Shown: positions 28,139-43,240 of the stretch, piece after piece
Position numbering within the stretch: the stretch's first letter is position 1
Layout: every line of letters begins with the position of its first letter
DNA from: a virus
Lineage: Duplodnaviria > Heunggongvirae > Uroviricota > Caudoviricetes
IMG/VR virus record: IMGVR_UViG_3300028797_000094
Span: 102,524-166,523 of that record
Direction: 5' to 3' (one strand)
DNA length: 64,000 nt
Program-made: the position numbers and the translations under genes
The notes under the pieces: model-generated
What the model was told of the DNA's origin: nothing
Seen by the model: only the letters and a program-made list of their open reading frames with translations
Databases searched by the model: none

Positions 28139-29442
28139 TGCTAAATAAATTTAAACAATTTGTTGATGAATTGTTAAAAGAAAATGGAAGTAATTATAAG
28201 AAGTCCATTTTAGAAAAATATAAAGAAGATAAAGATATTTTATATTTATTGGACTTCTTATATAATCCATATATAATTACAGGAATTTCAACAAAGAAAT
28301 TAAATAAAAAGTTTGAAAATTTTGATAAAATATTAGAAGAACATTTTGATCAAAGATTATTAACAGCTGAAGGCGAAGCAGATGTATTAAAAGGCTTATT
28401 AAATTATCTTCAAACGCATAATACTGGAACTGATACAGATATTAAAATGGTTCAACAATATAGATATCTTTGGTTTAGTGAAAATGCTGAATTATTTGAT
28501 AAAATTGTTACAAAAAATCTTCCACTTGGAATTGATGCAAAAACTATTAATAAGGTTATTCCAGGCCTCATTCCAGAATTTAATGTAATGTTAGCAAATA
28601 AATACTTTGATAATCCAAGTATTGTTGAAGGAAAAGAATTTGCGTTAACTACAAAAATTGATGGTGGAAGAATTATTGCAATGAAATGTGATGGTGAAGT
28701 TACATTTTATACAAGAGCTGGTCAAAAGTATGAAGGTCTTGTAGATTTGCAAAATGAGCTTGAAAATTTGACCATGGACAACTTTGTTTTTGATGGAGAA
28801 TTAACTTTATTAGATCCTGGTAAATTAACGTCTAAGGACCAATATAAAGAAACTATGAAGATTTCACGTAAAGATGGTGAAAAGTATGGTTTAAGAATGT
28901 TGGTATTTGATTTTATGCCAGTTAGAAATTTTTTAATTCAAAACTGTCTAGTTGATTATCGTCATAGACGTGCTGAATTATCTGCAATATTTGATTTAAA
29001 TGAATTTAAATATTTTAAGTTATTACCAATATTATATAAAGGTAATGATACTTCTGAAATTATTAAATGGTTAAATTATAATATTGAGCATGGTGAAGAA
29101 GGAGTTATGATTAACTTCTTAGATTCAGTTTATGAATTTAAGCGTTCAAATGCTTTATTAAAAGTAAAGAAAATGAATGATTTAGATTTAGAAATTATTG
29201 GTTTTGAAGAAGGAACTAATAAAAACGCTGGCAAACTTGGTGCAATTTTAGTTAATTATAAAGATAATGTAGTTAAAGTTGGTTCAGGTTTTTCAGATGA
29301 ATTACGTGAAGAAATTTGGCAAAATCAAGACAAATGGCTTGGTAGAACAGTAGTTATTCAATATTTTGAAGAAACTTGTAATCAAAATGGTGGAATTTCA
29401 TTAAGATTTCCTGTATATTTAGACTATAGAACAGATAAATAA
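28138..29442 (+). CDS. ATP-dependent DNA ligase
   Basis: Motif I TKIDGGR (KxDG); nucleotidyltransferase plus OB-like C-terminal half; start overlaps upstream stop (TAATG). Confidence 0.75.
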   Translation: MLNKFKQFVDELLKENGSNYKKSILEKYKEDKDILYLLDFLYNPYIITGISTKKLNKKFENFDKILEEHFDQRLLTAEGEADVLKGLLNYLQTHNTGTDTDIKMVQQYRYLWFSENAELFDKIVTKNLPLGIDAKTINKVIPGLIPEFNVMLANKYFDNPSIVEGKEFALTTKIDGGRIIAMKCDGEVTFYTRAGQKYEGLVDLQNELENLTMDNFVFDGELTLLDPGKLTSKDQYKETMKISRKDGEKYGLRMLVFDFMPVRNFLIQNCLVDYRHRRAELSAIFDLNEFKYFKLLPILYKGNDTSEIIKWLNYNIEHGEEGVMINFLDSVYEFKRSNALLKVKKMNDLDLEIIGFEEGTNKNAGKLGAILVNYKDNVVKVGSGFSDELREEIWQNQDKWLGRTVVIQYFEETCNQNGGISLRFPVYLDYRTDK

Positions 29443-29447
29443 AATAA

Positions 29448-29470
29448 GGGACTAAATTTTAGTTCCTTTT
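29448..29470 (+). terminator. terminator GGGACTAAATTTTAGTTCC plus TTTT
   Basis: Dyad plus T-run directly before a middle promoter. Confidence 0.6.
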
Positions 29471-29472
29471 AT

Positions 29473-29480
29473 TGTATAAT
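29473..29480 (+). promoter_or_regulatory. middle-type promoter TGTATAAT
   Basis: Same motif directly after terminator 29448-29470. Confidence 0.5.
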
Positions 29481-29513
29481 AATATTGAAATAAGTTTATA
29501 GAAAGGAAAATAT

Positions 29514-29801
29514 ATGAGTAAATTTATTGGTAAAAGTTTTAATGGTTGGAATGTTGTTGCTGAAGTTAACGCTGATAAGAAACACAAGTACTTTTTCTTA
29601 GTTGAATCAAAAGCAAAAAAGACTTCAGTTCCTGGAATGATTATTGTTAGAGATAATGATATGACTGCACTTGAAAGTAATGAAAAAAGTATTGAAGACA
29701 TTTTAGAAGCAAAAGAAAAAACAAGAGCTAAAAAGCCTACAGATTTCTTTGCCCAAGAATTCATGCTTTATAGTGATTTAGAAATAAAAAATGTAAAATA
29801 A
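29514..29801 (+). CDS. hypothetical protein
   Basis: ORF in track; middle promoter 29473-29480; RBS GAAAGGAAAA. Confidence 0.5.
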   Translation: MSKFIGKSFNGWNVVAEVNADKKHKYFFLVESKAKKTSVPGMIIVRDNDMTALESNEKSIEDILEAKEKTRAKKPTDFFAQEFMLYSDLEIKNVK

Positions 29802-29835
29802 TTTAAAAAAGACTAAGAAATTAGTCTTTTTTTAT

Positions 29836-29843
29836 TGTATAAT
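29836..29843 (+). promoter_or_regulatory. middle-type promoter TGTATAAT
   Basis: Same motif after a hairpin and T-run. Confidence 0.5.
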
Positions 29844-29879
29844 ATAATATAGAAGAAAAAAATACTTGGAGGTATTATT

Positions 29880-30644
29880 ATGTTTACAGTATCATCTTTT
29901 CCAGCAAAATTTATTACATTAAATGATAATAAAGAATTTGACTTAAGAAATTATTCACAATTTATGGATGAGTATAAAATTGATTTAATTGTTAGAAGCA
30001 TGGAAGACCTGCAATATTTAATTAATAAAAACTATGTAGGGAATTTAGAAGGTATTCTTTTATGCAGTAATAAGGATACAAAATATTTTACAAAACCTTG
30101 GTTAGTTAAAAATATATCAGTAGAATATTATGAAGACTCGGATAATCTTAAATATTATAATGTTTCTTTATCATTAGATCCATATTATAATAAAAATGAA
30201 TTAGCTAAAATTTTAGCTCAAAAAATTCCAACTACTATGGACGAGTATAATAAAAGACGTCCTTGTTATGATCCATTTTGGAATGAATTTGATTTAGCTG
30301 GACCGCTTAAATATGGAACTGAAGCTTGGGATAAAGTTATGAAAGAATTAAAAGAAGATGAAAGGAAAAATAAAATGGTTAAAATTAAAGACGTTTTTGT
30401 AAACAAAGAAAAACAAACTATTGTTGTTAAATGGGAAAACGGAGAAACTACAAAAGTTACTTGTGATCCTGCTGATAAATGGGATATTGAAAAAGGTGTT
30501 GCTATTGCAATTGCTAAGTTTTATTTAGGTAATAACTTTAATGCTGGTGAATTATTTAAGCGTTATTTAAAGAAAGCTGAGAGAAGTGAAGCATTAGCTA
30601 AAAAAGAAACTAAGAAGGTAGTAAAGAAGAATGAAACTCATTAA
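29880..30644 (+). CDS. hypothetical protein
   Basis: ORF in track; middle promoter 29836-29843; RBS GGAGG. Confidence 0.5.
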   Translation: MFTVSSFPAKFITLNDNKEFDLRNYSQFMDEYKIDLIVRSMEDLQYLINKNYVGNLEGILLCSNKDTKYFTKPWLVKNISVEYYEDSDNLKYYNVSLSLDPYYNKNELAKILAQKIPTTMDEYNKRRPCYDPFWNEFDLAGPLKYGTEAWDKVMKELKEDERKNKMVKIKDVFVNKEKQTIVVKWENGETTKVTCDPADKWDIEKGVAIAIAKFYLGNNFNAGELFKRYLKKAERSEALAKKETKKVVKKNETH

Positions 30645-30906
30645 TTATATTGATATTAATAGAGCTTGTGTCTCAGCTGAACCTGAAGAAATAACGGATT
30701 ATTTAGAAAATATGTCTGAAATACAACAAATGATTGTTGCTGCATTTCCAGGCAGACCAAGTAGCCCAATTAGTAGCCATTTATTAAAAAGAGATATTAC
30801 TTTAGAAGATGGCACAGTTTTAAGAAATGCTTGGTGTTATAATCTTCAAGATGTTGGTGATGAAGAAACTCGAATTTATGAGGTAGAATTTATATTTGAA
30901 GTATAA
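30631..30906 (+). CDS. hypothetical protein
   Basis: ORF in track. Confidence 0.45.
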   Translation: MKLINYIDINRACVSAEPEEITDYLENMSEIQQMIVAAFPGRPSSPISSHLLKRDITLEDGTVLRNAWCYNLQDVGDEETRIYEVEFIFEV

Positions 30907-30918
30907 ATAGACTTTAAA

Positions 30919-31437
30919 ATGAAACCAAATAGAAATAAAAAAGTTGATAGAAAATATTATCGAGAACTATTACAAGATAAACATTATTATTTAGATCAAA
31001 TCTTGCCAAAAGGTTGGGATGATTCAGATGATAATTTTATTGACGGGCGAGAAAAGCGTTGGTTAAAAGAAAGAGAAATCTATGGTTTTGATGAACGTGA
31101 TACTTGGTGTATGGAAGCTTCATTTTATATTTGGCTATATGAACATATAACCAGATATAAAGAAATTAATTGTGTAGATATGAATTATCACAAGTTTAGA
31201 TATAAACGTAAAGAATACACACAATTAGAATTAATGGATAATATTCTTGAAAGATTAGAATTTTATTTTACGAGTGAATATCAATATAAAGAAAATATTA
31301 AAATGCCAGAAAAATTGGCAAATAATAAGTATTTTATTAAGTATGGTTTTCATGATTCTTGGAAAGAAGAACATTTAGAAATAACAAGTGAAATTGCAAA
31401 AATTTGGGCAATTATATTACCAGCTATGTGGTGGTAA
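30919..31437 (+). CDS. hypothetical protein
   Basis: ORF in track. Confidence 0.45.
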   Translation: MKPNRNKKVDRKYYRELLQDKHYYLDQILPKGWDDSDDNFIDGREKRWLKEREIYGFDERDTWCMEASFYIWLYEHITRYKEINCVDMNYHKFRYKRKEYTQLELMDNILERLEFYFTSEYQYKENIKMPEKLANNKYFIKYGFHDSWKEEHLEITSEIAKIWAIILPAMWW

Positions 31438-31459
31438 TTTAAAATAGAAAGGAAAAAAT

Positions 31460-32557
31460 ATGGTTTTTAAAATTATTTTATTTGTAGTATTTATTTTAGC
31501 TACAATCGGTACAGGTATTTGGGCAATTATGTCTTTTGTTGACGATGAGAGTCCGGCAGGAAAAATTGCAGGAAGTATTTTAGCAGTAGTATTTTTGATT
31601 TTAACTATTTGCATTCCTGGAAACATTCATCAAGTTGATACTGGTGAAGTTGCTGTCGTTAGATATTTAGGAAAAGTTTCTGGTACAAGAGAAGCTGGTG
31701 TTCACTGGGATTCATATTTTACTAATAAGTATGAATATTATGATACTAAAGTTCGTGAAATTAAAATTGAAACACAGACTTACTCTAAAGATAACCAAAT
31801 CATTGGAGTAAATGCTGATTTACAATATACAATTGATGCATCACAAGTTGACAAAATTGCGACAGAATACGGCTCAATTGAAAAATTAGAGTCGAAGATT
31901 ACTTCAATCGCGCTTGACAATATTAAATCAGTATTTGCACAAAATACTGCGACTGATGTTATTAATAATAGAAGTACAATTAGTGCAAATATTTCAAGAG
32001 TTGTTGATGAAAGTATCAATGTTGGATATTATGTAAATGTTAAAACAATTGTTCTTACAAATATAGACTTTACAGACGACTTCGAAGCAGCTGTTGCTGC
32101 AAAAGTTGCACAAGAACAAAAGAGACAACAAGCTTTAATTGAACAAGAACAAAAATTAGCCGAAGCAGAAAATGCAAAACAAGTTGCTATTTTACAAGCA
32201 GAAGCAGAAGCTGAGGCAGCAACAAAGAGAGCTGAAGCTGAAGCAGAAGTTGCAAGAATTAAGGCACAAGCTGATAAAGATGTTGCACAAATTGGTGCTG
32301 ATAGTGCTGAGTACCAAGGTCGTAAAGAGGCCAGTATTGCAATGCAAAGATTAGCTTCCATTAACGGCTGGACAGTAGTTACAACTGACGAGGGAATTAA
32401 TACATTAGTTAAGCCAGATGGCACTTTAGTAAGTGATGCTGAATTAAAAGTTGGTGCAGAAAATCTTATCAAGTATTATTATACTCAACAATGGAATGGT
32501 ATCTTACCAGAAACATATATGAGTTCAGATGATGTATCAACTGTAATTATTCCATAA
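31460..32557 (+). CDS. SPFH/band-7 (prohibitin/HflC-like) membrane protein
   Basis: N-terminal TM helix, SPFH-like core, then an A/E-rich coiled coil (AEAENAKQVAILQAEAEAEAATKRAEAEAEVARIKAQADKD). Confidence 0.6.
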   Translation: MVFKIILFVVFILATIGTGIWAIMSFVDDESPAGKIAGSILAVVFLILTICIPGNIHQVDTGEVAVVRYLGKVSGTREAGVHWDSYFTNKYEYYDTKVREIKIETQTYSKDNQIIGVNADLQYTIDASQVDKIATEYGSIEKLESKITSIALDNIKSVFAQNTATDVINNRSTISANISRVVDESINVGYYVNVKTIVLTNIDFTDDFEAAVAAKVAQEQKRQQALIEQEQKLAEAENAKQVAILQAEAEAEAATKRAEAEAEVARIKAQADKDVAQIGADSAEYQGRKEASIAMQRLASINGWTVVTTDEGINTLVKPDGTLVSDAELKVGAENLIKYYYTQQWNGILPETYMSSDDVSTVIIP

Positions 32558-32585
32558 AGATATAGAGATAAATAAGTCTCCTTTA

Positions 32586-32597
32586 TTTGCTAAATTA
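32586..32597 (+). promoter_or_regulatory. late-promoter box TTTGCTAAATTA
   Basis: As above. Confidence 0.55.
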
Positions 32598-32620
32598 ATA
32601 GTAAAAGGAGACTTTTATTT

Positions 32621-33277
32621 ATGACAAATTTACAACCAATTGATGTGTTAAATTGAATAGACTCAGATTGGCAATGACAATCTTATTTTGATCAACTTAT
32701 AAAACCAGAAAATTGAACACAGTTGCATTATGGCAGTAGGGGACAAGTTGGTGATAAGCCATTACTTTCTACAATGTTTGATTCAAAAGAAACAATTGTT
32801 AGCTATTTTGTAAAACGTATACCTGCTAATTCTTATGCTTCTGCTGAACGTGCTGGAAAATGAATTTTTTATAATTTATTAAATCTTAATATTTTAAATG
32901 AATTTCTTTTAGCTGCTAAAGACGTAAAAATTCCAAGTGAAGAAGAAATTTTTAATACTAATGTACTTGGACCAAAATATCAAGTTGGATGAATTAGTAC
33001 TGGTGGAGATACTATAAATGCATCTTTTATTTTTCGTGGCAAAGGTGATGGAAGTAGAGAAAGTAGAAATCAAAAAAGAATAATGTGTGATCTTACTTTA
33101 TTATCTTTTGATCAATTTTATAGTGCACATGCAAAAAATATTTCTGATTTTTCACAATTATTAATAAAAATAAAATATGAATTACAAGATGGTATGAGAA
33201 AAATCTGACAAAGAACTCTTAATACCACATGAAAAACTATCTTAGTTGATACACGATCTTTAGCACCAAAAAGATAA
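32621..33277 (+). CDS. hypothetical 218-aa protein with 9 TGA=Trp codons
   Basis: Late box 32586-32597 then AAGGAGAC-N7-ATG; the only stops in frame before TAA at 33275 are TGA (e.g. LNWIDSDWQWQSY). Confidence 0.55.
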
Positions 33278-33387
33278 GCTAAATTAAGTACAATAGATCC
33301 CGCTGTTAATATAAAAAATTGATAGCGGTTTTAATTTTCTACAAATTTGGAGAATAACAGATAACTGACTCCAGGAAGGTGATTTTT

Positions 33388-35571
33388 ATGTTAATTACAA
33401 AGCGTGATGGAACTAAGCGTGATTTTGATAGTTCCAAGATTAGATCTGCTATTAGTAAGGCTAATAGTAGAAGTTTAGAAATGACTGAAGATGAAATTGA
33501 TCAGGTTACAAATTCAGTAGTAAGTAAGTGTGAAAAAATACAAGATTTAGATGTTGAACAAATTCAAGATTTAGTTGAAAGAACATTACTTGTTAGTAAG
33601 TTTAAAGCAACTGCAAAACAATATATCTTGTATAGAGATCAAAGAACAAGAATTAGACAAGGCAAATCTAAGTTATTAAAAGAAGTTGGCGACAAATTAT
33701 TTGGTTTTGATATTGTTAATCAAAATGCTAATGTTGACGAGAAATCTTTTGGTGGAAGAAAAGGTGAAGCAGATAGTGTAATTACAAAGCAATATGCATT
33801 AGATTATTGTATGTCTGAAAAGTCAAGAAATAATCATTTAAATAATGAAATTTATATTCATGACTTAGATTCATATGCTGTTGGAATGCACAACTGTTTA
33901 TCAATTCCATTTGATGATTTATTAGCAAAAGGTTTTAATACAAGGCAAACAGATATTAGACCAGCAAGTTCAGTAAATACTGCATTTCAATTAGTTGCTG
34001 TAATCTTCCAATTACAAAGTTTACAACAATTTGGTGGTGTTTCTGCAACTCATTTAGATTGGACAATGGTTCCTTATATTAGAAAATCATTTGCAAAGCA
34101 TTTTAAAGATGGTTTAGAATTTGTCGAGAATATAGATAATCCAAAAGAAACATTCTTCTGTTATGATGCAACAAATAGACCAATTGATGCAAAAGAATAT
34201 AAGAATTATGATGGTGCATATAAATATGCAATAAAGATGACTCAACGTGAATTAGACCAAGCAGTTGAAGGAATGTATCATAACTTAAATACTTTACAAA
34301 GTCGTTCAGGAAATCAATTACCTTTCACTTCTATTAATTATGGAACTTGTACAAGTTCAGAAGGAAGAATGGTTATTAAGTCATTACTTGAAGGAAGTTT
34401 AAAAGGTGTTGGTAAATTACATAGAACACCAATATTCCCTTGCGGTATTTTTCAATATATGAAAGGTGTTAATGATAGACCTGGAACTCCAAATTATGAT
34501 ATGTATCAATTAGCATTAAAATCTACTGCAAAAAGATTATATCCAAATTATGCAAATGTAGACTGGTCTAATAATGCTGGTTATGATAGAAACGATCCAA
34601 AAACTTATTTTAGCACAATGGGATGTCGTACTGCAAATGGTGCAGATATTAATGCTGAACCAGGTGTAAACCCACAAACTAAAGATGGCCGTGGTAATAT
34701 TTGTCCAGTTACAATTATTCTTCCAACTTTAGCAATGGAAGCTGATAGAGATGTTGAATGCTTCATGAAATTACTTGATTATAAGATTAATGAAGCAAAA
34801 GACATGTTAATTGAAAGATATGAATTCATTTGTTCACAAAGTGCAGACTCAGCTAAGTTTATGTATGAAAATGGCACAATGATGGGCTATCATCCAGAAG
34901 AAGGAATTAGAAGTGCTTTAAAACATGGAACATTAGTAATTGGTCAAATTGCTATGGCTGAAACATTACAACTCTTAATTGGCAAAAATCAATGTACTCC
35001 TGAAGGTATGGCATTAGCAAAACGTATTGAAGAATTATTTAAAAAACGTTGTGCAGAATTTAAACAAAAATATCATTTAAACTTTGGTGTTTATTATACT
35101 CCAGCTGAAAATCTTTGTTATACAGCTATGAAAAAGTTTAAAGAAAAATATGGTGTAATTCCAAATGTTTCAGATCGTGAATATTTTACAAATAGTATTC
35201 ATGTTCCAGTTTGGGAAGATGTAACTGCATTTGAAAAAATTGATATTGAATCACAATTAACAGGTTATTCTAATGCCGGTTGTATTACATATGTTGAATT
35301 ATCATCAGCAGCAACTGGAAATTTAGAAGCTTTAGAAACTTTAGTTAATTATGCAATGGATAAAGATATTCCTTATTTTGCAGTTAATATTCCAAATGAT
35401 ACTTGTTTAGATTGTGGTTATACTGGTGAATTTAATGATTGCTGCCCAGAATGTGATAGTCATAATATTCAACAATTACGTAGAGTCACAGGATATCTTA
35501 CTGGAAACTATAAAACTGCTTTCAATTATGGAAAACAAAAAGAAGTAGAAGATAGAGTTAAGCATATTTAA
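33388..35571 (+). CDS. nrdD: anaerobic ribonucleoside-triphosphate reductase (class III)
   Basis: N-terminal ATP-cone (ITKRDGTKRDFDSSKIRSAISKA); C-terminal glycyl-radical motif QQLRRVTGYLTG; Cys-rich CLDCGY...CCPEC zinc site; RBS AGGAAGG. Confidence 0.9.
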   Translation: MLITKRDGTKRDFDSSKIRSAISKANSRSLEMTEDEIDQVTNSVVSKCEKIQDLDVEQIQDLVERTLLVSKFKATAKQYILYRDQRTRIRQGKSKLLKEVGDKLFGFDIVNQNANVDEKSFGGRKGEADSVITKQYALDYCMSEKSRNNHLNNEIYIHDLDSYAVGMHNCLSIPFDDLLAKGFNTRQTDIRPASSVNTAFQLVAVIFQLQSLQQFGGVSATHLDWTMVPYIRKSFAKHFKDGLEFVENIDNPKETFFCYDATNRPIDAKEYKNYDGAYKYAIKMTQRELDQAVEGMYHNLNTLQSRSGNQLPFTSINYGTCTSSEGRMVIKSLLEGSLKGVGKLHRTPIFPCGIFQYMKGVNDRPGTPNYDMYQLALKSTAKRLYPNYANVDWSNNAGYDRNDPKTYFSTMGCRTANGADINAEPGVNPQTKDGRGNICPVTIILPTLAMEADRDVECFMKLLDYKINEAKDMLIERYEFICSQSADSAKFMYENGTMMGYHPEEGIRSALKHGTLVIGQIAMAETLQLLIGKNQCTPEGMALAKRIEELFKKRCAEFKQKYHLNFGVYYTPAENLCYTAMKKFKEKYGVIPNVSDREYFTNSIHVPVWEDVTAFEKIDIESQLTGYSNAGCITYVELSSAATGNLEALETLVNYAMDKDIPYFAVNIPNDTCLDCGYTGEFNDCCPECDSHNIQQLRRVTGYLTGNYKTAFNYGKQKEVEDRVKHI

Positions 35572-35573
35572 AA

Positions 35574-35599
35574 TAAAGCTGTAGAAGTACAGCTTTTTA
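35574..35599 (+). terminator. terminator AAAGCTGTAGAAGTACAGCTTTTT after nrdD
   Basis: Dyad plus T-run. Confidence 0.6.
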
Positions 35600-35611
35600 T
35601 TTGCTAAATTA
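35600..35611 (+). promoter_or_regulatory. late-promoter box TTTGCTAAATTA
   Basis: As above. Confidence 0.55.
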
Positions 35612-35648
35612 TTTGTAAAACCTTGAAGAATTAATAAAGGAGAAAATT

Positions 35649-36473
35649 ATGAAAAAAGAATATAGTTTACTAGAAGCTTTTGATGACTTAAATAAGTTAG
35701 ATGAAGTTAGTTATACACCACGACAATCGAGCTATTATTCTCGCCAAGCACGAGCACGATATGATAATCAACAAGAATTCTGAAAAGCTGCTAGAGAAGG
35801 AAAACTTGACTTATTTCGTTTTAATGAAGGATATTCTAATTTATTGTGAAATATGATTGAAAAAACGCCAGGTGTTGAATTTGAAGATATTTTTATGCCA
35901 CTTGGGAATGTTTATAAGTCACTTGGCATAAAAGACAATTCATTTGATGATATTAATACTTTAAAAGATAAGTCTTGTTATGGAGCAATTAAAAAATTAG
36001 ATGAGGCTTTTCCAGATAATTGAGCAGTTAAAGCATTAAAAAAAGTTTGGTGGATGCTATTTAAGGATAATATTGAGCCTGCTGAGCTTATTTATGCTAA
36101 GAAACAGCACTGAAAAGATAGTTTAAAGCAAGCAATATTAGACCTTCCTGGTGTTGATGATATACTAAAGAAATGTGTGCAAGGCGAAAGGACATATGAC
36201 TTTACTATTGATAGTACAGAAGTTTATTTGACACATAAATGATATAATGATGTTTATGATGAATATGCTGATTTAAATTGACATACTACAGAGGATTACT
36301 GAGTACAAGCAATCATAAAATATAGAAATGATCCCCAAGAAATACTTTCACCAGAAGATGCTGCTACTGAAATAAATAGAAAGTGAAAAGCAAAAGATTA
36401 TGAAGAGCGCACTAATGCTCGTGATATGGAGGATCGTTGAACAGCTGGTCATGAAGCTATACATATATATTAA
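35649..36473 (+). CDS. hypothetical 274-aa protein with 11 TGA=Trp codons
   Basis: Late box 35600-35611; RBS AAGGAGAAAATT-ATG; codon-by-codon translation reaches TAA at 36471 with only TGA interruptions. Confidence 0.55.
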
Positions 36474-36479
36474 CAAAGT

Positions 36480-36530
36480 AAGCTATATTTGGCTTACTTT
36501 TATTATATAAGCTATATTTAGCTTACTTTT
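36480..36530 (+). terminator. tandem duplicated terminator (TAAGCTATATTTGGCTTACTTTT, twice)
   Basis: Two near-identical hairpin and T-run copies. Confidence 0.5.
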
Positions 36531-36532
36531 AT

Positions 36533-36540
36533 TGTATAAT
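36533..36540 (+). promoter_or_regulatory. middle-type promoter TGTATAAT for the FNT-nrdG-methyltransferase unit
   Basis: Same motif after a tandem terminator. Confidence 0.5.
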
Positions 36541-36598
36541 AATATATAGGCAATCGGGTCAAAATAATAAAATGACCCAATAACCGGAGGTAAAAATT

Positions 36599-37279
36599 AT
36601 GAAATTAAAAAAATTAAGTGATTTGCCATATACAAAACAAGCAAGATTTATTTTTCAATCTATTACAGCTGGTATTTTAATTGCAATGGCTGGTGGTATT
36701 TATTTAAATTGTGAAAATAAATACGTTGGTGCATTTTTATTTAGTATTGGTTTAATTGCAGTTATTTTATTAGATGCTAATTTATTTACTGGAAAAGTTG
36801 GTTATATTAAAACTTGGCGAGATACTTGGAAAGCTGGAGTAATGTTATTATTTAATTTTACTGCTGCAATATTTATGGGAATGCTTTATAAAGGTCTTAA
36901 ATCAGTTGATGGTTTATATCCTGCTATGCAATTTTTACATGGCCCATTTGGTGAAGGTAGTGCAAGAATGGCTAAAACTTGGTATCAAATGTTTTTTGAT
37001 GGTTTTAGTTGTGGTGTATTTATTTATCTTGCAGTTGAACTTTATAAGAAAACACATAATATAATTCCAGTTATTCTTTGTGTAATGGGCTTTATTCTAA
37101 GTGGAACTGAGCACTGCATTGCAAACAGCTTTTATTTGGGTGCAAGTTCATTTGAATCTACTGCAGAAGCTTGGAAAGCATTTGGTTATCTTGAAATAAA
37201 TATTATAGGTAATGCTTTAGGCAGTTTAGCAATAAGGTGGCTACAAGTTAGCATAGAAAAAGATGTGGTGAATAAATAA
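36599..37279 (+). CDS. FNT-family (FocA/NirC-like) formate/nitrite channel homolog
   Basis: FSIGLIAVILLDANLFTG matches FocA FSLGLILCVVCGADLFTS; GFILSGTEHCIANSFY matches FocA SGFEHSIANMF; multiple TM segments; middle promoter 36533-36540 plus leader hairpin. Confidence 0.6.
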   Translation: MKLKKLSDLPYTKQARFIFQSITAGILIAMAGGIYLNCENKYVGAFLFSIGLIAVILLDANLFTGKVGYIKTWRDTWKAGVMLLFNFTAAIFMGMLYKGLKSVDGLYPAMQFLHGPFGEGSARMAKTWYQMFFDGFSCGVFIYLAVELYKKTHNIIPVILCVMGFILSGTEHCIANSFYLGASSFESTAEAWKAFGYLEINIIGNALGSLAIRWLQVSIEKDVVNK

Positions 37280-37887
37280 TGAGAATTTTAGATATTAAAA
37301 AATGCACAATAGCAGATGGTCCTGGAATAAGATTATCTATTTATTGTTCTGGTTGCGATTTACATTGTAAAGGTTGTCATAATCAAGAAGCTTGGGATTT
37401 TAATCAAGGAACAGATTATAAAGAATTATTAGATGAAATAATTTCTGAACTTGAAAAATCTTATTATAAGGGCATTACATTTTGTGGTGGCGAACCATTA
37501 AATCCAAAAAATGTAGATGGTTTTTTAGAAATAGCAAAACTTATAAAAGAAAAATTACCAACAAAAGATATTTGGTGTTACACTGGTTATGAGTGGGAAG
37601 ATGTTAAAGATTTAGAAATTATGAAATATATTGATGTTGCTGTTGTTGGTCCGTTTATTTTAAAAGAAAGAGATATAACAAGTAAAAATAAATGGCGTGG
37701 TAGCAAAAATCAAAGAGTGATTGATGTTAGAATGTCTTTAGCATTCAATACAAAACTTTATTTAGCAGGAATTCCAAATAATGGTGATTTTGTGCCATTT
37801 TTAGTTTATAGTGATTATTTTCCAAATGGAATGACTGATGAAGAATTTATTGAAAAGTTTTTAGAAAATAAGAAAAATAATGGATAG
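37279..37887 (+). CDS. nrdG: anaerobic ribonucleotide reductase activating protein (radical SAM)
   Basis: CSGCDLHCKGC cluster plus GGEP motif; start overlaps the upstream stop. Confidence 0.8.
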   Translation: MRILDIKKCTIADGPGIRLSIYCSGCDLHCKGCHNQEAWDFNQGTDYKELLDEIISELEKSYYKGITFCGGEPLNPKNVDGFLEIAKLIKEKLPTKDIWCYTGYEWEDVKDLEIMKYIDVAVVGPFILKERDITSKNKWRGSKNQRVIDVRMSLAFNTKLYLAGIPNNGDFVPFLVYSDYFPNGMTDEEFIEKFLENKKNNG

Positions 37888-37911
37888 AATTTTAATATTC
37901 TATCTTTTTTT
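37882..37911 (+). terminator. terminator GGATAGAATTTTAATATTCTATC plus T-run after nrdG
   Basis: Dyad plus T7. Confidence 0.6.
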
Positions 37912-37934
37912 ATTTAAAATAGTGAAGAAAATAT

Positions 37935-37942
37935 TGTATAAT
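37935..37942 (+). promoter_or_regulatory. middle-type promoter TGTATAAT
   Basis: Same motif after terminator 37882-37911. Confidence 0.5.
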
Positions 37943-37969
37943 AATATGTAAGAAAATAGAGGTAAAAAT

Positions 37970-38662
37970 ATGCCGCATACATCAGAAGATTTATTTAGAC
38001 TGCTTGGTGCAAGTAATCATACAAGCGATGAAAGAGAAGCAACAGACTTTTATGCAACAGACCCAGAATGTATTGATGACTTATTTGAAGTTGAACAATT
38101 TGGAGACACAATTTTAGAACCCTGTTGTGGATCTGGTAATCTTTCTAAAAGAATGGAAGAACTTGGAAAAACAGTAATTTCAACAGATTTATATGATCAT
38201 GGATTTGGAAAATCAGGAATTGACTTTTTTACTTATAAAGATATTGATTATGATATTATAACAAATCCACCATATATGTTTCAAACAGAATTTGTTGATC
38301 ATGCTTTAAAAGAATTAAAACCTGGCCGAAAAATGGCATTGTTTTTAAAAGTTCAATTTTTAGAGGGACAAGAAAGATTAGAAAAAATATTTAATCAAAA
38401 GAAACTTGAAACAGTTTATATTTATTCTAAGCGTGTTGCTTGTTATAAAAATGATGAGCGATATCAAAAGAATGAAGATGGAACTTTTAAGTTAGATAAA
38501 GATGGCAACAAGAAAAAGATTGGCTCTGCTGCTTGTTATTGCTGGTTTATTTTTAATACAAACTACAACGGTTTTCCAACTTTAAAATGGATTGTTCCAA
38601 AGCAAGAAGTTAATGACAAACCAAAACCATATAATTTATTTTCGGAGGTATTAAATGATTAA
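37970..38662 (+). CDS. DNA N6-adenine (or N4-cytosine) methyltransferase, NPPY class
   Basis: Motif I ILEPCCGSGNL and motif IV IITNPPY; middle promoter 37935-37942. Confidence 0.65.
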   Translation: MPHTSEDLFRLLGASNHTSDEREATDFYATDPECIDDLFEVEQFGDTILEPCCGSGNLSKRMEELGKTVISTDLYDHGFGKSGIDFFTYKDIDYDIITNPPYMFQTEFVDHALKELKPGRKMALFLKVQFLEGQERLEKIFNQKKLETVYIYSKRVACYKNDERYQKNEDGTFKLDKDGNKKKIGSAACYCWFIFNTNYNGFPTLKWIVPKQEVNDKPKPYNLFSEVLND

Positions 38663-38912
38663 ATTAAATGGAGACAAAGTTTATTTAACAGAAACAGATT
38701 TAAAATCTATGAAAGGAATTTGGGGAGCATTTAGAAGTCTTCCAAGTTATTGTGCGGATTTGTTAAAACTTGGAAATGATAAGTATGAAGAATTTAGTAA
38801 ATGGCCTGATACTTATAATGCAAAAGTTGATGATGAAATTCCATTTGAAAAATATGTTGATTTATTTAATATTGTATTTATAGAAAAAAATTATGAGGTG
38901 ACAAATGAATAA
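38655..38912 (+). CDS. hypothetical protein
   Basis: ORF in track; overlaps the methyltransferase stop. Confidence 0.45.
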   Translation: MIKLNGDKVYLTETDLKSMKGIWGAFRSLPSYCADLLKLGNDKYEEFSKWPDTYNAKVDDEIPFEKYVDLFNIVFIEKNYEVTNE

Positions 38913-39141
38913 AGTAATTATTGATGGAATTGTAACTTATGAAGATGGAGCTTGGCTAACTATAACAGCCGATGATGAAGATGTGCATTGCTATGTTCCA
39001 AGTCATGCGCCTGTATTTGAACATGATTATGTCAAAGCTGAAGGTTATTTATCTGCAAGTCATATGGACGCAAATAAATTTATAGTTACAAATATAAAAG
39101 TTTTACAAAGAGCAAAGGATAAAGCTATTAGAATCGAATAA
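38905..39141 (+). CDS. hypothetical protein
   Basis: ORF in track; RBS GAGGTGA. Confidence 0.45.
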   Translation: MNKVIIDGIVTYEDGAWLTITADDEDVHCYVPSHAPVFEHDYVKAEGYLSASHMDANKFIVTNIKVLQRAKDKAIRIE

Positions 39142-39208
39142 TAAGGCTCAAAATTTGGCCTGTATCGCGTTTTCTAATAAAATGTTATAAATTATAAGGG
39201 AGACAAAA

Positions 39209-39376
39209 ATGGAAGCTTTAAACTTGTTAAATCGACGCATTGAGCGATTAAATGAGGAGATTAAAGCCAATGCTCCAACTATTATTATTAAGTATGAACT
39301 TAAGCTTGTACAAGAAGCAATAGATAAATTAGTTGAAGTTTATGGCTTACCTGAAGAAGAAAAAGTAGCTGAATAA
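39209..39376 (+). CDS. hypothetical 55-aa coiled-coil protein (below track cutoff)
   Basis: RBS AAGGGAGA; ends at hairpin terminator GTAGCTG...CAGCTAC. Confidence 0.4.
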   Translation: MEALNLLNRRIERLNEEIKANAPTIIIKYELKLVQEAIDKLVEVYGLPEEEKVAE

Positions 39377-39393
39377 AAGCAGCTACTTTTTTA

Positions 39394-39405
39394 TTTGCTA
39401 AATTA
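39394..39405 (+). promoter_or_regulatory. late-promoter box TTTGCTAAATTA
   Basis: As above. Confidence 0.55.
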
Positions 39406-39423
39406 TTTAGTGGAGAATTTATT

Positions 39424-39948
39424 ATGAATAAGGACTTTTTAGATATTTATGAAAAATTAAGTAAATTAAATGAAAAATGATATACAGGTGAAGATCCATC
39501 TTATGAAAAAATTTGATATTCAGATTCAATTTATGAATTTAGAAACTTCATTCAAAATGTTGTAAATGAAGGAAAAATAAAAGGTCTAAGATTATGTATT
39601 TCAAATGGTCATTATTTAGCTGCAAGAGCTTCTGATTTAAATCATGATGTAATGCGTGAAGTACTTTATGAAACAACTGGAATAAGAATGACTTGAAAAG
39701 ATTCTGAAGGCAGTATAATAGGAATTCCAAAAGCAGAAAATTTTGAGTCTGATAATTATGAAATTCCTGATTTATTGGAAGATGACCCAGATTATGATAT
39801 TTATAAAGAATATTCTGGTAAAGTAATTGCAGATTGTGGTAATTTTGAAGTATATTTAATTAGGCGTAAAAGTGAGACTGATTGGAAAGGTACTGCAACA
39901 GAAGAAGCTTTTAGACCATTTATAAAAGGATATTATATTCATAAATAA
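39424..39948 (+). CDS. hypothetical 174-aa protein with 3 TGA=Trp codons
   Basis: Late box 39394-39405; RBS GGAGAATTTATT-ATG; codon walk reaches TAA at 39946. Confidence 0.5.
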
Positions 39949-39960
39949 GGAGAGTTTATT

Positions 39961-40509
39961 ATGGAAATTAAAAGACAATATGACCATGGAAAACTTGGAA
40001 ATTTTTTATTTGATGTTTGTGCAGGTTGAACAAAATTTTTAGTAAAGCATAGATGATTATATTATTTACTTGCTTGCACTTGAGGAATTATTCAAACTGT
40101 AGTTGGACTAATTATTACATTAGTTATGTTATATGCAAAATTATTTTTTAGAGAATATATTCATTTTAAAAAGTATAAATGGATATATGCAATTTCAGCT
40201 GGCCCAGAATACTGGGGTGGTTTTGAAATGGGATTAATGTTTGTTAGAGATCAAAAGTCAACAGAAAGCTATTTAGACACGCATGAATTTGGACACACTA
40301 TTTGTCAATTATGAACAGGCCCATTCTATTTATTTACTATTGCATTACATTCAGCAACAAGATATTGGGTTCAAGAATTTAGAGAAAGAAAAGGAAAGAA
40401 AAATCCTCCATATGATCAATACTGAGCTGAAGATGCGGCAAGTCAATGTGGTAAATATGCTGCTTGATATATTGATGAACATAAGAAAGGTAAGAAAGTA
40501 AATGATTAA
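39961..40509 (+). CDS. membrane zincin-like protein (HEFGH motif), TGA=Trp used
   Basis: RBS AAGGAGAG; two hydrophobic helices then GGFEMG...THEFGHTICQLW (HExxH); 5 in-frame TGA. Confidence 0.5.
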
Positions 40510-41380
40510 GAAAGTTAGATTAACAAAAGATATTAAAGAATTAGATAAACAAATTTTTGATCAAATTGTATTTGATGGAGTTATGCCAAGTCCTGAAGAT
40601 ACAAGAGACTTTACACCAGCAATGGTTGCTGCAGAAGTTAGAGAATTTCCAGAAGAATATGAAGCACCTGAAACTGAAATTTTAAATCAAGGCTCAGTAG
40701 GTTCTTGTGTTGCTCATTCTTGTTCTACAGCTTTATCAAAAGGTGAAGAAGTTAACTATGAAAAACATAAAGAATATTCTCGTGGATATATTTATGGAAA
40801 TCGTGCCGACACTGATTTTAAAGGTGAAGGTATGTATATGAGACAAGCATTAAAGCAATTAAATAAATGTGGTGATGTTTATTATACAGATTTTCCTTAT
40901 AATAAAAAATATCCAGAAGTTCAAAAATTAATTGAAGCAGAAAAAGATGCCTTAGCTGAAAAAGCTGCACCTCACAAAATTATTAATTATTATAGATGCT
41001 ATACTGAAGAAGATATTAAAGCTGCAGTTATGGATAGGGGTGGCTGTTTAATTTGTGTTCCTGTTTATACAGACTTTGCAAGAAATCTAACTAAGACTAA
41101 AACAAAAGAATTACGTGGTTATCATGCAATGATTATTGTTGGTTGAACAGCAGAAGGTCAATGAATTGTTCAAAATTCTTGAGGACAAAATTGAGGCTAT
41201 GATGGAAAATTATTAATGAGTAAAGATTATCCAGTTGATGAATATTGGGGAATTACTGTTAATGAAAATAAAGATCTAAGTGATGATCCTATTGAACCAA
41301 AACCTGTCGAAAACTGGTTAACAAGATTTTTACGTGCAATTAAAGAATTCTTTAAGAAAATATTTGCTAAAAATAAGTAG
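40502..41380 (+). CDS. papain-family (C1) cysteine peptidase, candidate endolysin or virion peptidase; TGA=Trp
   Basis: QGSVGSCVAHS (Cys site), GYHAMIIVGW (His site), QWIVQNSWGQNWGYDG (Asn/Trp site, where every W is TGA). Confidence 0.75.
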
Positions 41381-41443
41381 TTTAAGCTACTTATTTTTTT
41401 ATTAGTCTAATATAAAATAAAAATAATAATTTATTATTTTATT

Positions 41444-41455
41444 TTTGCTAAATTA
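41444..41455 (+). promoter_or_regulatory. late-promoter box TTTGCTAAATTA
   Basis: As above. Confidence 0.55.
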
Positions 41456-41512
41456 AATGATTATGGGCACAGTTTTAGTCTGTGTAGTCTTAGAATATAG
41501 GAGGCACATATT

Positions 41513-42151
41513 ATGCCATTATGATTAGAAATAGTAATAGCAGTAGTTGGTTTACTTGGTACAGTTTTAGGTGTATTAGGTATTTCAGGGTATTTAGCAG
41601 AACGTGGTAAGTTCAAAGCTAAAAGAGTAAATGAAAGAGAATTGGCAAGAGAACAAGAAGAAGAAGAAAGAAAACAACAACGTTTAACTGATTCAATTCG
41701 TACAGTTTTTAGAGAAGAATCAAAACCTATTAATGATAAGATTGAAAATATTTTTTCTGAAATCAATGAAATTAAAGTTGACCTTGCTGCAAATACAACT
41801 GGTACTGTTACAATGTTAAGAGACAGAATGAAAGCTATTTTAGATCTTTGTCGTGAAGATGGGTATGCTTCTGCAAGTACTAAAGCAAACTGACATGAGC
41901 TATATAAAACATATAGGGATTTAGGTGGAAATCATTTCTTAGAATATGTTAATGCATGGAAAGAAGAAATGGATGATTTACCAGTTACACCAGTTGAAAG
42001 AACTACAATTGATGCTGATCAATTAAGGGCACTTGGTCTTACTTTTGCAAGAGCAGCTGCTACAGCTCCACAAACGAGGGGAAAGAAAAAAGAAAAAGAG
42101 CTTGTTAGTATTGGCATAGTAGAAAATAAAGAAGACAAAGATGAAGAATAA
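41513..42151 (+). CDS. membrane-anchored coiled-coil protein (lysis-associated?), TGA=Trp
   Basis: Late box 41444-41455; RBS AGGAGG; N-terminal TM helix MPLWLEIVIAVVGLLGTVLGVLGI; track ORFs 41642.. and 41969.. are in the same frame. Confidence 0.5.
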
Positions 42152-42176
42152 AATTTAAGCAAAGGAGAAAATTGAA

Positions 42177-42542
42177 ATGGAAATCTTTTTAGAAATTTTA
42201 AAACTTTTACCAGAAATTATTTCAGCTGCTTCAGCTATTGTTGCATTCGTACTTTTAATAATTAAATCTATTAAAGATAAGAACTGAAAATTAATTACTG
42301 AGATTGCTAAGCAAGTTATGGCAGATGTTGAAGAATTTGCAAAAACTCATCCTGATATGACATCTGAAGATAAATTAAATATGGCACTTGAAGGAATTAA
42401 AACAGCTATGGAAGCTGCAGGAATTGCTTTTGATGAAAAAATTATTAAGAAATTAATTGATTATATTTCTGAAATGTGCAAATGGTCAAAGAAAGTTAAT
42501 ACTGTTGAAGTAAAAGCAACTGCTAAAAAAGCTGCAAAATAA
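42177..42542 (+). CDS. small membrane protein, holin-like candidate (1 TGA=Trp)
   Basis: RBS AAGGAGAAAATTGAA-ATG; N-terminal hydrophobic segment EIISAASAIVAFVLLII; lysis-cassette context. Confidence 0.4.
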
Positions 42543-43239: not shown

Positions 43240-43240
43240 G

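What the first reader, a model, noticed from the sequence alone, without database searches (positions are those of the whole stretch)
33388..37887. Phage-encoded FNT (FocA-like) channel embedded in the nrdD-nrdG module
The gene order is nrdD (33388..35571), a recoded hypothetical (35649..36473), an FNT-family channel (36599..37279) and nrdG (37279..37887). The channel's start overlaps nothing but its stop abuts nrdG, so they form one transcription unit from middle promoter 36533. The 226-aa protein carries both FNT signatures (LLDANLFTG against FocA GADLFTS, and SGTEHCIANSF against FocA SGFEHSIANMF). It is shorter than cellular FocA (~285 aa). Class III ribonucleotide reductase uses formate as its reductant, so a phage-borne formate channel coupled to nrdDG is a coherent auxiliary metabolic module that I do not recognise as described. 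It also points to a strictly anaerobic host.
Basis: partly seen in the sequence, partly recalled or inferred. Interest (0 to 1): 0.7.

Follow-up and report, generated by a model that had tools for sequence, protein, structure and literature searches.

The report
Phage formate-type channel beside anaerobic RNR
A large gut or rumen phage carries a stripped-down member of the formate/nitrite channel family fused into its anaerobic ribonucleotide-reductase genes, an arrangement repeated in many unrelated phages, which suggests the phage imports formate, the chemical reductant that this enzyme consumes to make DNA building blocks.

Summary
ORF 36599..37279 encodes a 226-aa FNT-family protein: Pfam PF01226 at E=1.7e-20, an AlphaFold model at pLDDT 93, and only FocA/HSC/NirC/PfFNT among the top PDB fold matches. 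It keeps the central His, the omega-loop Thr and the hydrophobic pore constrictions.

It lies between nrdD and nrdG and overlaps nrdG (TAATG). It sits behind a promoter-like motif that occurs 7 times in the window.

The linkage is not an accident of this genome:
- 62 of the 80 best IMG/VR loci encoding a relative have nrdD and/or nrdG within 5 kb (median gap 24 bp), in several gene orders and at least three NrdD clades.
- Every adjacent NrdD whose finger loop was readable has the MGCR motif of formate-dependent class III RNRs.
- In cellular genomes the same short FNT subfamily is common in gut Clostridia and Bacilli, but only 1 of 80 loci is nrd-linked.
- Instead, 13 of 80 cellular loci sit inside purine operons next to purN, another formate/C1-consuming pathway.

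Most likely function: a formate/formic-acid conduit feeding the phage's NrdD. Transport itself is untested, and nitrite or hydrosulfide are not excluded.

I found no description of this module. The only published phage FNT is a cyanophage focA-nirA nitrite pair. This is a new variant of a known kind.

The parts
33388..35571 (+). nrdD, class III (anaerobic) ribonucleotide reductase with an N-terminal ATP-cone, the finger-loop motif STMGCRT (formate type) and a C-terminal glycyl-radical domain
   Evidence: Pfam NRDD 9.8e-149, ATP-cone 9.7e-21, Gly_radical 4.9e-8. NCBIfam TIGR02487 above its cutoff. Best solved relative is the formate-requiring Prevotella copri NrdD 8p23, E=6e-122 (PMC11226230). 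MGCR begins at residue 410 (Cys412).
35575..35596 (+). Terminator-like hairpin directly after nrdD
   Evidence: 9-bp stem followed by a T run; sequence.
35649..36473 (+). ORF274: 274-codon ORF readable only if TGA codes for an amino acid (9 in-frame TGA). Function unknown. Lies between nrdD and the FNT gene only in this phage.
   Evidence: No Pfam or PHROG family. Absent from this slot in relatives, where nrdD abuts the FNT gene. Weak homologues (32% over 143 aa) lie downstream of the FNT in L001-L003 and L017.
36475..36530 (+). Two tandem terminator-like hairpins after ORF274
   Evidence: First hairpin 36475..36500. The second, near-duplicate hairpin was read by eye from the sequence.
36532..36550 (+). 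Promoter-like motif TTGTATAATAATATATAGG (extended -10 type) upstream of the FNT gene
   Evidence: 7 matches in the window, all on the + strand, against 0.16 expected. Another copy lies at 37934, before the next gene.
36586..36590 (+). Shine-Dalgarno GGAGG, 8 nt upstream of the FNT start codon
   Evidence: Read directly from the sequence.
36599..37279 (+). Short FNT-family channel gene (226 aa). Pore residues: F48, L52, L62, T64, F165, E171, H172. Basic vestibule residue: R123.
   Evidence: PF01226 E=1.7e-20. AF2 pLDDT 93.4, pTM 0.88. Foldseek PDB hits HSC, FocA, NirC and PfFNT at probability 1.0. Invariant columns across 65 homologues. Alignment to FocA and HSC.
37279..37887 (+). nrdG, radical-SAM activase of NrdD. 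Its start codon overlaps the FNT stop codon (TAATG).
   Evidence: TIGR02491 4.2e-50 above cutoff. Fer4_12 1.4e-43. Overlap shown.
37883..37911 (+). AT-rich hairpin (GATAGAAT / ATTCTATC) followed by a T run, overlapping the nrdG stop codon; probable end of the FNT-nrdG transcript
   Evidence: Read directly from the sequence. Not called by the scanner, which requires at least 3 G-C pairs.

Best explanation
[quoted passage not shown] It is co-transcribed and translationally coupled with nrdG, and it belongs functionally to the phage's class III ribonucleotide reductase module.

Proposed mechanism:
1. The protein inserts into the host membrane. By analogy with the family it forms a pentamer.
2. 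It conducts formate/formic acid down its gradient into the infected cell.
3. NrdD, which has the MGCR finger loop of the formate type, oxidises one formate to CO2 for each dNTP made. That sink keeps the gradient inward.
4. dNTP supply for replicating a roughly 237-kb genome is thereby uncoupled from the host's own formate production.

The retained central His fits uptake competence. The missing N-terminal cytoplasmic domain implies gating that does not depend on PflB.

Shown here: family membership, fold, conserved pore residues, and phage-specific, recurrent nrdDG linkage.
Inferred: the substrate, the direction of flux and the oligomeric state.
For: Family and fold:
- Pfam PF01226 above its threshold.
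- AF2 model at pLDDT 93.4 with six TM helices, TM2 and TM5 broken at LFT (62-64) and EH (171-172).
- The top 50 listed PDB fold matches are all FNT channels.

Pore residues:
- Columns invariant in 65 homologues: F48, L52, L62, T64, G65, N86, F165, H172, A175, G204, N205, G208.
- E171 and K66 are conserved in at least 90%.
- F48, L52, L62, T64, F165 and H172 align to the FocA/HSC pore residues.
- Position 123 is K or R in every row displayed. This was read by eye from one row in three.

Linkage:
- Close and distant relatives sit directly beside nrdD/nrdG.
- 62 of 80 IMG/VR loci are nrd-linked, with a median gap of 24 bp and six gene arrangements, all co-oriented.
- After dereplication at 90% identity, 36 clusters are linked and 10 are not.
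- Linkage occurs in at least three NrdD finger-loop clades; clades A, A2 and C show both main orders.
- Every linked NrdD with a readable finger loop has MGCR. That is the formate-dependent type (PMC9669993).
- The closest solved NrdD is experimentally formate-requiring (PMC11226230).

Phage specificity: only 1 of 80 cellular loci is nrd-linked.

Independent pointer to formate/C1:
- 13 of 80 cellular loci place the gene inside purE-purC-purF-purM-[FNT]-purN-IMP cyclohydrolase-purH-purD.
- Formate feeds formyl-THF and purine synthesis in Clostridia (PMC4536278).

Expression unit: promoter-like motif, Shine-Dalgarno site, TAATG overlap and a downstream hairpin.

GC content: the FNT gene is 29.8% GC, like the rest of the genome, so it is not a recent acquisition.
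Against: - No transport data exist for any member of this short subfamily.
- FNT pore residues are shared by formate, nitrite, hydrosulfide and lactate channels. Sequence alone therefore cannot assign the substrate (PMC8914244).
- The protein scores far below the FocA and generic FNT equivalog cutoffs of NCBIfam.
- The position aligned to FocA Asn172 (numbering from my own knowledge) is Gly139.
- The N-terminal domain that gates FocA is absent.
- Only 27 of the 80 closest viral NrdD relatives carry the channel, so NrdD works without it.
- 18 of 80 viral FNT loci have no nrd gene within 5 kb.
- FNT channels are bidirectional, so export cannot be ruled out.
- Both surveys saw only the best 80 loci of larger hit lists, and many loci share ancestry.
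Confidence: 0.6

Rival explanations
1. The channel carries a different small anion, such as nitrite or hydrosulfide. Its job would be to export it and so protect the oxygen- and NO-sensitive glycyl radical of NrdD and the Fe-S cluster of NrdG. It would not supply reductant.
For: - Sequence and fold matches to the hydrosulfide channel HSC and to NirC are as good as those to FocA.
- FNT pore residues do not discriminate between substrates (PMC8914244).
- One JGI relative is auto-named NirC.
- The only published phage FNT is read as a nitrite transporter (PMC8115048).
Against: - No nitrite- or sulfide-metabolising gene lies beside any of the loci examined.
- The cellular homologues sit in purine operons next to a formyl transferase. 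That fits formate but not nitrite or sulfide.
- All linked NrdDs with a readable finger loop are of the formate-consuming type.
Confidence: 0.15
2. The protein acts mainly as a membrane dock or regulator for NrdD, paralleling the FocA-PflB partnership between a channel and a glycyl-radical enzyme. It would channel substrate or control enzyme activity by contact, rather than simply raising cytoplasmic formate.
For: - NrdD is a glycyl-radical enzyme. RNRs and the glycyl-radical enzyme family that includes pyruvate formate-lyase are structurally related (PMC9669993).
- FocA is gated through its cytoplasmic face (PMC8914244). That PflB is the partner in this gating is my own knowledge.
- Gene adjacency is very tight, with overlapping stop and start codons.
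Against: - The FocA element that engages the cytoplasmic vestibule is the N-terminal domain (PMC8914244). This subfamily lacks it: TM1 starts at about residue 10, and many members start directly with TM1.
- Two thirds of close NrdD relatives lack the channel.
- The same subfamily works in purine operons without any NrdD nearby.
Confidence: 0.1
3. The protein is a membrane-perturbing phage factor (holin-like, superinfection exclusion or proton-motive-force dissipation). It happens to derive from an FNT scaffold, and its position near nrdDG is only inherited synteny.
For: - A weak sub-threshold Pfam hit to Phage_holin_5_2 (20.8 bits against a cutoff of 29.2, over 23 residues).
- 18 of 80 viral loci are not nrd-linked and lie among uncharacterised phage genes.
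Against: - All channel-forming residues are invariant over sequences only 30-60% identical. That would not be expected for a mere membrane disruptor.
- Linkage recurs in different gene orders and different NrdD clades.
- Cellular members lie in housekeeping operons.
Confidence: 0.05

Closest known systems
FocA of E. coli, Salmonella and Vibrio (formate channel of the focA-pflB operon; PDB 3KCU, 3KLY, 3Q7K, 9G49)
   Same: - Same Pfam family and same fold.
- Same pore constellation by alignment: Phe/Leu constrictions, omega-loop Thr, S-loop Glu-His, basic vestibule residue.
- Both are encoded beside a glycyl-radical enzyme whose chemistry involves formate.
   Different: - About 60 residues shorter.
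- Lacks the N-terminal cytoplasmic gating domain.
- Gly replaces the Asn of the FocA 'CN' motif.
- Far below the FocA equivalog scores (51.6 against 290.1 bits).
- The partner enzyme consumes formate (NrdD) rather than producing it (PflB).
- Encoded by a phage.
HSC (hydrosulfide channel, C. difficile, PDB 3TDO) and NirC (PDB 4FC4)
   Same: HSC gives the best full-length sequence and fold matches (query residues 7-210; TM-score up to 0.75). It is a Firmicute FNT with the same Thr/His core.
   Different: HSC and NirC are linked to sulfite or nitrite reductase genes (my own knowledge). No such genes lie near any locus examined here. Identity is about 22%.
Cyanophage focA-nirA auxiliary metabolic genes (Gazitua et al. 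2020, PMC8115048)
   Same: A phage-encoded FNT-family gene, co-transcribed with the enzyme that uses the transported anion.
   Different: - That gene is a full-length copy 86% identical to the Prochlorococcus host gene. It is paired with nitrite reductase and read as nitrite uptake for nitrogen assimilation.
- The present one is a divergent short subfamily paired with class III RNR in gut or rumen phages.
- It has no PHROG family.
- Only one auto-annotated viral counterpart is in BFVD.
Phage nrdD-nrdG modules (for example T4) with introns and homing endonucleases
   Same: Formate-type NrdD plus its activase as a phage nucleotide-metabolism module. The nrdD-nrdG interval is a landing site for endonuclease genes in relatives.
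   Different: As far as I know, the classical modules contain no transporter. About a third of the closest relatives of this NrdD add the channel.

Membership tests
FNT family (Pfam PF01226, TC 1.A.16) | Significant full-length match to the family profile, above the curated threshold | tested here: met
   PF01226 E=1.7e-20, 73.9 bits against a gathering score of 34.6; residues 14-210 on profile positions 18-231 of 240.
FNT family (Pfam PF01226, TC 1.A.16) | Six-TM aquaporin-like protomer with TM2 and TM5 each broken by a loop (omega loop and S loop) | tested here: met
   AF2 model at pLDDT 93.4. Helices 10-37, 41-57/63-69, 73-103, 128-152, 156-167/173-181 and 188-225. The top 50 listed PDB hits are all FNT channels, probability 1.0, TM-score 0.60-0.75.
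FNT family (Pfam PF01226, TC 1.A.16) | Central pore His (FocA H209) and omega-loop Thr (FocA T91) | tested here: met
   H172 and T64 are invariant in 65 homologues. They align to the EH and LFT motifs of FocA and HSC.
FNT family (Pfam PF01226, TC 1.A.16) | Hydrophobic constriction residues (FocA F75, L79, L89, F202; numbering from my own knowledge) and a basic vestibule residue (K156) | tested here: met
   F48, L52, L62 and F165 are invariant and align to the corresponding FocA/HSC positions. Position 123 is K or R in all rows displayed (read by eye).
FNT family (Pfam PF01226, TC 1.A.16) | Homopentameric assembly and monovalent-anion conductance | not testable with these tools
   Needs multimer modelling or biochemistry.
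FocA proper (NCBIfam TIGR04060 / NF008069 equivalogs) | Score above the equivalog cutoff | tested here: not met
   51.6 bits against 290.1 (TIGR04060) and 19.3 against 440 (NF008069). The generic TIGR00790 also fails, at 56.5 against 232.3.
FocA proper (NCBIfam TIGR04060 / NF008069 equivalogs) | N-terminal cytoplasmic domain that gates the channel (PMC8914244), and linkage to pflB | tested here: not met
   TM1 starts at about residue 10. Query residue 19 aligns to FocA residue 36. No pfl gene was found in any locus examined.
Formate-dependent class III RNR (NrdD with an MGCR finger loop) | NRDD catalytic domain, C-terminal glycyl-radical domain and adjacent NrdG activase | tested here: met
Formate-dependent class III RNR (NrdD with an MGCR finger loop) | Single-cysteine finger loop with an upstream Met (MGCR) rather than a double-cysteine CCR loop (PMC9669993) | tested here: met
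   STMGCRT, with MGCR at residues 410-413, in the window. MGCR is present in every FNT-linked NrdD whose loop region was in the fetched DNA.
Formate-dependent class III RNR (NrdD with an MGCR finger loop) | Formate required for turnover | not testable with these tools
   Inferred from the motif and from the 6e-122 match to the formate-requiring P. copri NrdD (PMC11226230).
Published viral focA auxiliary metabolic gene (cyanophage focA-nirA) | Host-like full-length FocA/NirC next to nirA under NtcA control | tested here: not met
   No nirA nearby. The protein is a short, divergent subfamily. GenBank phages hold one unannotated 26%-identical fragment. The paper is PMC8115048.

The most novel reading that the evidence does not exclude
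Phages of gut and rumen anaerobes have repeatedly attached a dedicated reductant-supply channel to their anaerobic ribonucleotide reductase. On this reading, formate availability is a real bottleneck for viral DNA synthesis in these hosts.

The same uncharacterised, N-terminal-domain-less FNT subfamily would be a formate importer for nucleotide synthesis in Clostridia and Bacilli, where it lies in purine operons.

In the strongest form, the channel also docks onto NrdD, as FocA does with PflB.
Probability: 0.45. Interest if true: 0.7.

Novelty: new variant of a known kind. Interest (0 to 1): 0.6.

Why it matters
- It would be a clear case of a virus encoding both an enzyme and the membrane channel that feeds that enzyme its stoichiometric reductant. 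Formate would then be a currency limiting phage replication in anaerobic gut ecosystems.
- It gives a concrete, testable function to a widespread, unstudied short FNT subfamily. That subfamily was found at 578 or more loci in the species-genome collection and in 169 IMG/VR stretches.
- It links two nucleotide pathways through formate: dNTP reduction in phages and purine formylation in bacteria.
- It predicts that FNT-carrying phages infect hosts, or live in niches, where internal formate is scarce but external formate is available. This bears on formate cross-feeding with methanogens in the rumen.
- Rough scale, my own inference: a 237-kb genome needs about 4.7e5 dNTPs. A burst of 50-100 virions would therefore consume tens of millimolar-equivalents of formate in a cell of about 1 fL.

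Tried and rejected
- Megablast of the module against GenBank phages found nothing.
- tblastn of the channel against the same collection found one unannotated 26%-identical fragment from human faeces, with no useful context.
- PHROGs has no family for the channel.
- Cluster members carry no source names.
A 14-sequence alignment worked.
- The holin idea was rejected: the sub-threshold 23-residue hit is outweighed by the conserved channel residues.
- A recent host-to-phage transfer was rejected. GC content is ameliorated, and viral and cellular sequences interleave in a rough neighbour-joining tree, which is too crude to say more.
- Neighbours of the 18 viral loci without nrd genes were uninformative.
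- ORF274 and the TGA-rich ORF at 32621..33277 match no Pfam or PHROG family.
- The generic sigma-70 scan is at background, so I rely on the repeated phage motif instead.
- The idea that TGA-free nrdD, FNT and nrdG mark 'pre-recoding' early genes is not general. In relative L004, both nrdD and the FNT gene contain an in-frame TGA.

Full report

Yes. The window holds co-oriented ORFs at the stated coordinates:
- nrdD at 33388..35571
- a 274-codon ORF at 35649..36473
- a 226-codon ORF at 36599..37279
- nrdG at 37279..37887

Pfam assigns the 226-aa product to Form_Nir_trans. The match is PF01226, E=1.7e-20, 73.9 bits against a gathering score of 34.6, and it covers nearly the whole profile.

nrdD matches NRDD, ATP-cone and Gly_radical. 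nrdG matches the NrdG equivalog.

The middle ORF contains nine in-frame TGA codons and ends in TAA. Across the window, many genes can be read only with TGA as a sense codon, while others have none. This is therefore a phage with mixed stop-codon recoding, a known phenomenon (PMC11210395).

The FNT stop codon and the nrdG start codon overlap as TAATG.

The identical protein, in the same four-gene arrangement, was assembled independently from several samples. One assembly is a 237-kb contig.

**2. Is it an FNT channel?**

phmmer against PDB sequences finds only FNT channels: Vibrio FocA, C. difficile HSC, Salmonella and E. coli FocA, and NirC. The alignments superpose LFTG on LFT(S/G) and SGTEHCIAN on SGFEH(C/S)IAN.

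An AlphaFold2 model built on 65 homologues has mean pLDDT 93.4 and pTM 0.88. It shows six transmembrane helices. TM2 is broken at residues 58-62 and TM5 at 168-172. That is the omega-loop and S-loop architecture of the family.

In the Foldseek search of the PDB, all 50 listed top hits are HSC, FocA, NirC or PfFNT, at probability 1.0.

Across 65 homologues (30-71% identical), these columns are invariant: F48, L52, L62, T64, G65, N86, F165, H172, A175, G204, N205 and G208. E171 and K66 are conserved in at least 90%.

Via the alignments, F48, L52, L62, T64, F165 and H172 correspond to the pore-lining Phe/Leu constrictions, the Thr and the central His of FocA. The FocA numbering is from my own knowledge.

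Position 123 is K or R in every row displayed, read by eye. It matches the vestibule Lys.

Differences from FocA:
- There is no N-terminal cytoplasmic domain. TM1 begins at about residue 10, and query residue 19 aligns to FocA residue 36.
- Loops are shorter.
- Gly139 stands where FocA has the Asn of its 'CN' motif.
- Scores fall far below the NCBIfam FocA, NirC and generic-fnt cutoffs.

It is a member of the family, but not a FocA or NirC orthologue.

**3. Local anatomy**

Terminator-like hairpins follow the gene upstream of nrdD (33300..33328), nrdD itself (35575..35596) and ORF274 (36475..36500, with a near-duplicate hairpin just after it).

At 36532 lies TTGTATAATAATATATAGG, an extended -10-like motif. 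It occurs seven times on the + strand against 0.16 expected, including once just before the next gene at 37934.

A GGAGG lies 8 nt before the FNT ATG. An AT-rich hairpin plus a T run overlaps the nrdG stop codon.

So FNT-nrdG is most simply one transcript with translational coupling. In this phage, nrdD is probably transcribed separately.

**4. Comparative evidence from the channel side**

A search of about 5.8 billion proteins found 189 relatives, all 126-250 aa, and all of the 120 listed carry PF01226. Their contexts:

| Relative | Identity to window FNT | Arrangement |
|---|---|---|
| 62% relative | 62% | nrdD-FNT, overlapping |
| 52% relatives | 52% | nrdD-FNT-nrdG, all overlapping |
| 47% relative | 47%; its NrdD is only 30% identical to the window's | nrdD-FNT-nrdG |
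| 38% relative, in a different kind of phage (Sipho_Gp157, Thy1, dUTPase) | 38% | nrdD-LAGLIDADG-nrdG-FNT |
| 33% relative | 33% | bacterial housekeeping context, no nrd |

A scan of IMG/VR found 169 stretches encoding a relative, and the best 80 were kept. Of these 80:
- 62 have nrdD and/or nrdG within 5 kb.
- The median distance to the nearest nrd gene is 24 bp.
- All are on the same strand.
- Arrangements: nrdD-nrdG-FNT (36), nrdD-FNT-nrdG (16), nrdD-FNT (5), nrdG-FNT (2), FNT-nrdD (2) and FNT-nrdD-nrdG (1).

After clustering the channels at 90% identity there are 36 linked and 10 unlinked clusters. At 70% the figures are 31 and 10.

The linked NrdDs fall into at least three finger-loop clades: STMGCRT/ATMGCRT, PCMGCRS and S(L/P)MGCRA. 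Their identity to the window's NrdD ranges from 24% to 91%. The STMGCRT, ATMGCRT and S(L/P)MGCRA clades each show both main gene orders.

Every linked NrdD whose loop lay within the fetched DNA carries MGCR.

**5. Comparative evidence from the reductase side**

The 80 viral NrdDs closest to the window's (65-84% identity) split as follows:
- 27 have the channel: 18 as nrdD-FNT-nrdG and 9 as nrdD-nrdG-FNT.
- 53 do not.

In the channel-less pairs, nrdD and nrdG abut. Forty of 47 gaps are 55 bp or less.

Five pairs have inserts of 0.7-0.9 kb. By their GIY...YIG or HNH-type sequences these look like homing endonucleases. That identification was made by eye and not HMM-tested.

The result is negative.

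The channel is therefore an optional add-on that is gained and lost, not an obligatory subunit.

**6. Cellular homologues**

They come mostly from gut and rumen Clostridia and Bacilli: Ruminococcus, Oscillospiraceae, Lachnospiraceae, Erysipelotrichaceae and Acholeplasmataceae. A few are from Methanomassiliicoccales.

Of the best 80, only one (L150) is nrd-linked. Its NrdD is 68% identical to the phage's, so it is probably a phage or prophage contig.

Thirteen of the 80 lie inside a purine operon: purE-purC-purF-purM-[FNT]-purN-IMP cyclohydrolase-purH-purD (Pfam confirmation).

Purine synthesis takes two formyl groups from formyl-THF. In Clostridia, formyl-THF is made from formate. A pfl deletion in C. 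thermocellum is rescued by 2 mM formate (PMC4536278).

Two independent genomic contexts thus connect this subfamily to formate-consuming steps of nucleotide synthesis.

**7. Mechanism**

Class III RNRs with the single-cysteine MGCR loop use formate as the stoichiometric reductant (PMC9669993). The closest solved relative of this NrdD, from Prevotella copri, requires formate experimentally (PMC11226230).

In FocA, the central His is needed for pH-dependent uptake, and Asn or Gln variants only export (PMC8914244). The His is invariant in this subfamily.

The best-supported reading is a formate/formic-acid conduit that feeds the phage NrdD during replication. NrdD acts as the sink that keeps flux inward. 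I put this at about 0.6.

Steps shown: family, fold, residue conservation, linkage and NrdD type.
Steps inferred: substrate, direction, pentamer formation and timing of expression.

Rivals:
- Export of another anion, nitrite or hydrosulfide, to protect the radical enzyme (about 0.15).
- A docking or regulatory role like FocA-PflB (about 0.1). This is weakened by the missing N-terminal domain.
- A membrane-perturbing factor (about 0.05).

**8. Comparison with what is known, and novelty**

The literature library yielded one published phage FNT. It is a cyanomyophage focA, 86% identical to the Prochlorococcus gene, next to nirA, and interpreted as nitrite uptake (PMC8115048).

Searches combining formate or nitrite transporter, phage and nrdD or ribonucleotide reductase found nothing relevant.

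PHROGs has no family for this protein. BFVD has one auto-named viral counterpart of 191 aa. GenBank phages hold one unannotated fragment.

The protein family is known. The short subfamily and the RNR-plus-channel module appear undescribed. I classify this as a new variant of a known kind.

**9. Limits**

- Both surveys saw only the top 80 loci of longer lists, ranked by similarity to this window.
- Many loci are related by descent, so the counts are not independent events.
- Some IMG/VR contigs may be prophages or mis-binned.
- 'Strictly anaerobic host' is not established. The evidence is the presence of nrdDG and the gut and rumen origin of the cellular homologues.
- The host is unknown. A Firmicute is suggested only by where the cellular homologues occur.

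Noticed in passing
window 1..64000; for example 15155..17032, 19434..24224 (-), 32621..33277, 35649..36473, 39424..41380, 43792..59048: Mosaic stop-codon recoding. Many long ORFs are readable only with TGA as a sense codon (up to 31 in-frame TGA in a 2417-codon ORF). Neighbouring genes, including nrdD, the FNT gene and nrdG, have none. In relative L004, nrdD and the FNT gene each carry one in-frame TGA, so the partition differs between related phages.
   Followed up: partly
window 7523..7609 (+): A tRNA gene (Rfam RF00005, 47.5 bits) with an aberrant 6-nt anticodon loop (CAAUUG) and a long variable arm. ARAGORN cannot assign an anticodon. No ordinary UCA suppressor tRNA was found in this 64-kb window, despite TGA being used as a sense codon.
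   Followed up: partly
window 35649..36473: The recoded 274-codon ORF sits between nrdD and the FNT gene only in this phage. It is bracketed by terminator-like hairpins. Weak homologues (32% over 143 aa) lie 1.4-2 kb downstream of the FNT gene in relatives L001-L003 and L017. This points to a local rearrangement or a moron-like insertion. Function unknown.
   Followed up: partly
window 3406, 7285, 9478, 12323, 29835, 36532, 37934 (+ strand): A repeated motif, TTGTATAATAATAT..., occurs 7 times against 0.16 expected. It is probably a phage promoter class of the extended -10 type. It is not present directly upstream of nrdD.
   Followed up: partly
L102, L104, L108, L109, L114, L126 and seven further cellular loci (13 of L097-L176): In Ruminococcaceae- and Oscillospiraceae-type genomes, the short FNT gene is embedded in the purine de novo operon, between purM and purN. 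I did not find this association described.
   Followed up: partly
L012/L013 4481..5263; L222, L223, L226, L245, L259 (nrdD-nrdG gaps); L021, L072, L081, L082, L088, L089: The nrdD-nrdG interval of related phages is a landing site for LAGLIDADG-, GIY-YIG- and HNH-like endonuclease genes. In several relatives the nrdD match is interrupted at about residue 414, right beside the MGCR finger loop. That suggests introns or inteins at the active site.
   Followed up: no
window 31460..32557; also L001 1..128: A Band_7/SPFH membrane-scaffold protein with an N-terminal TM segment lies just upstream of the nrd region and is conserved in relatives. Its role in the phage is unknown.
   Followed up: no
window 37279..37887: NrdG has an extension of about 50 residues beyond the 154-aa NrdG model (residues 155-202). 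It is absent from the 173-176-aa NrdGs of relatives.
   Followed up: no
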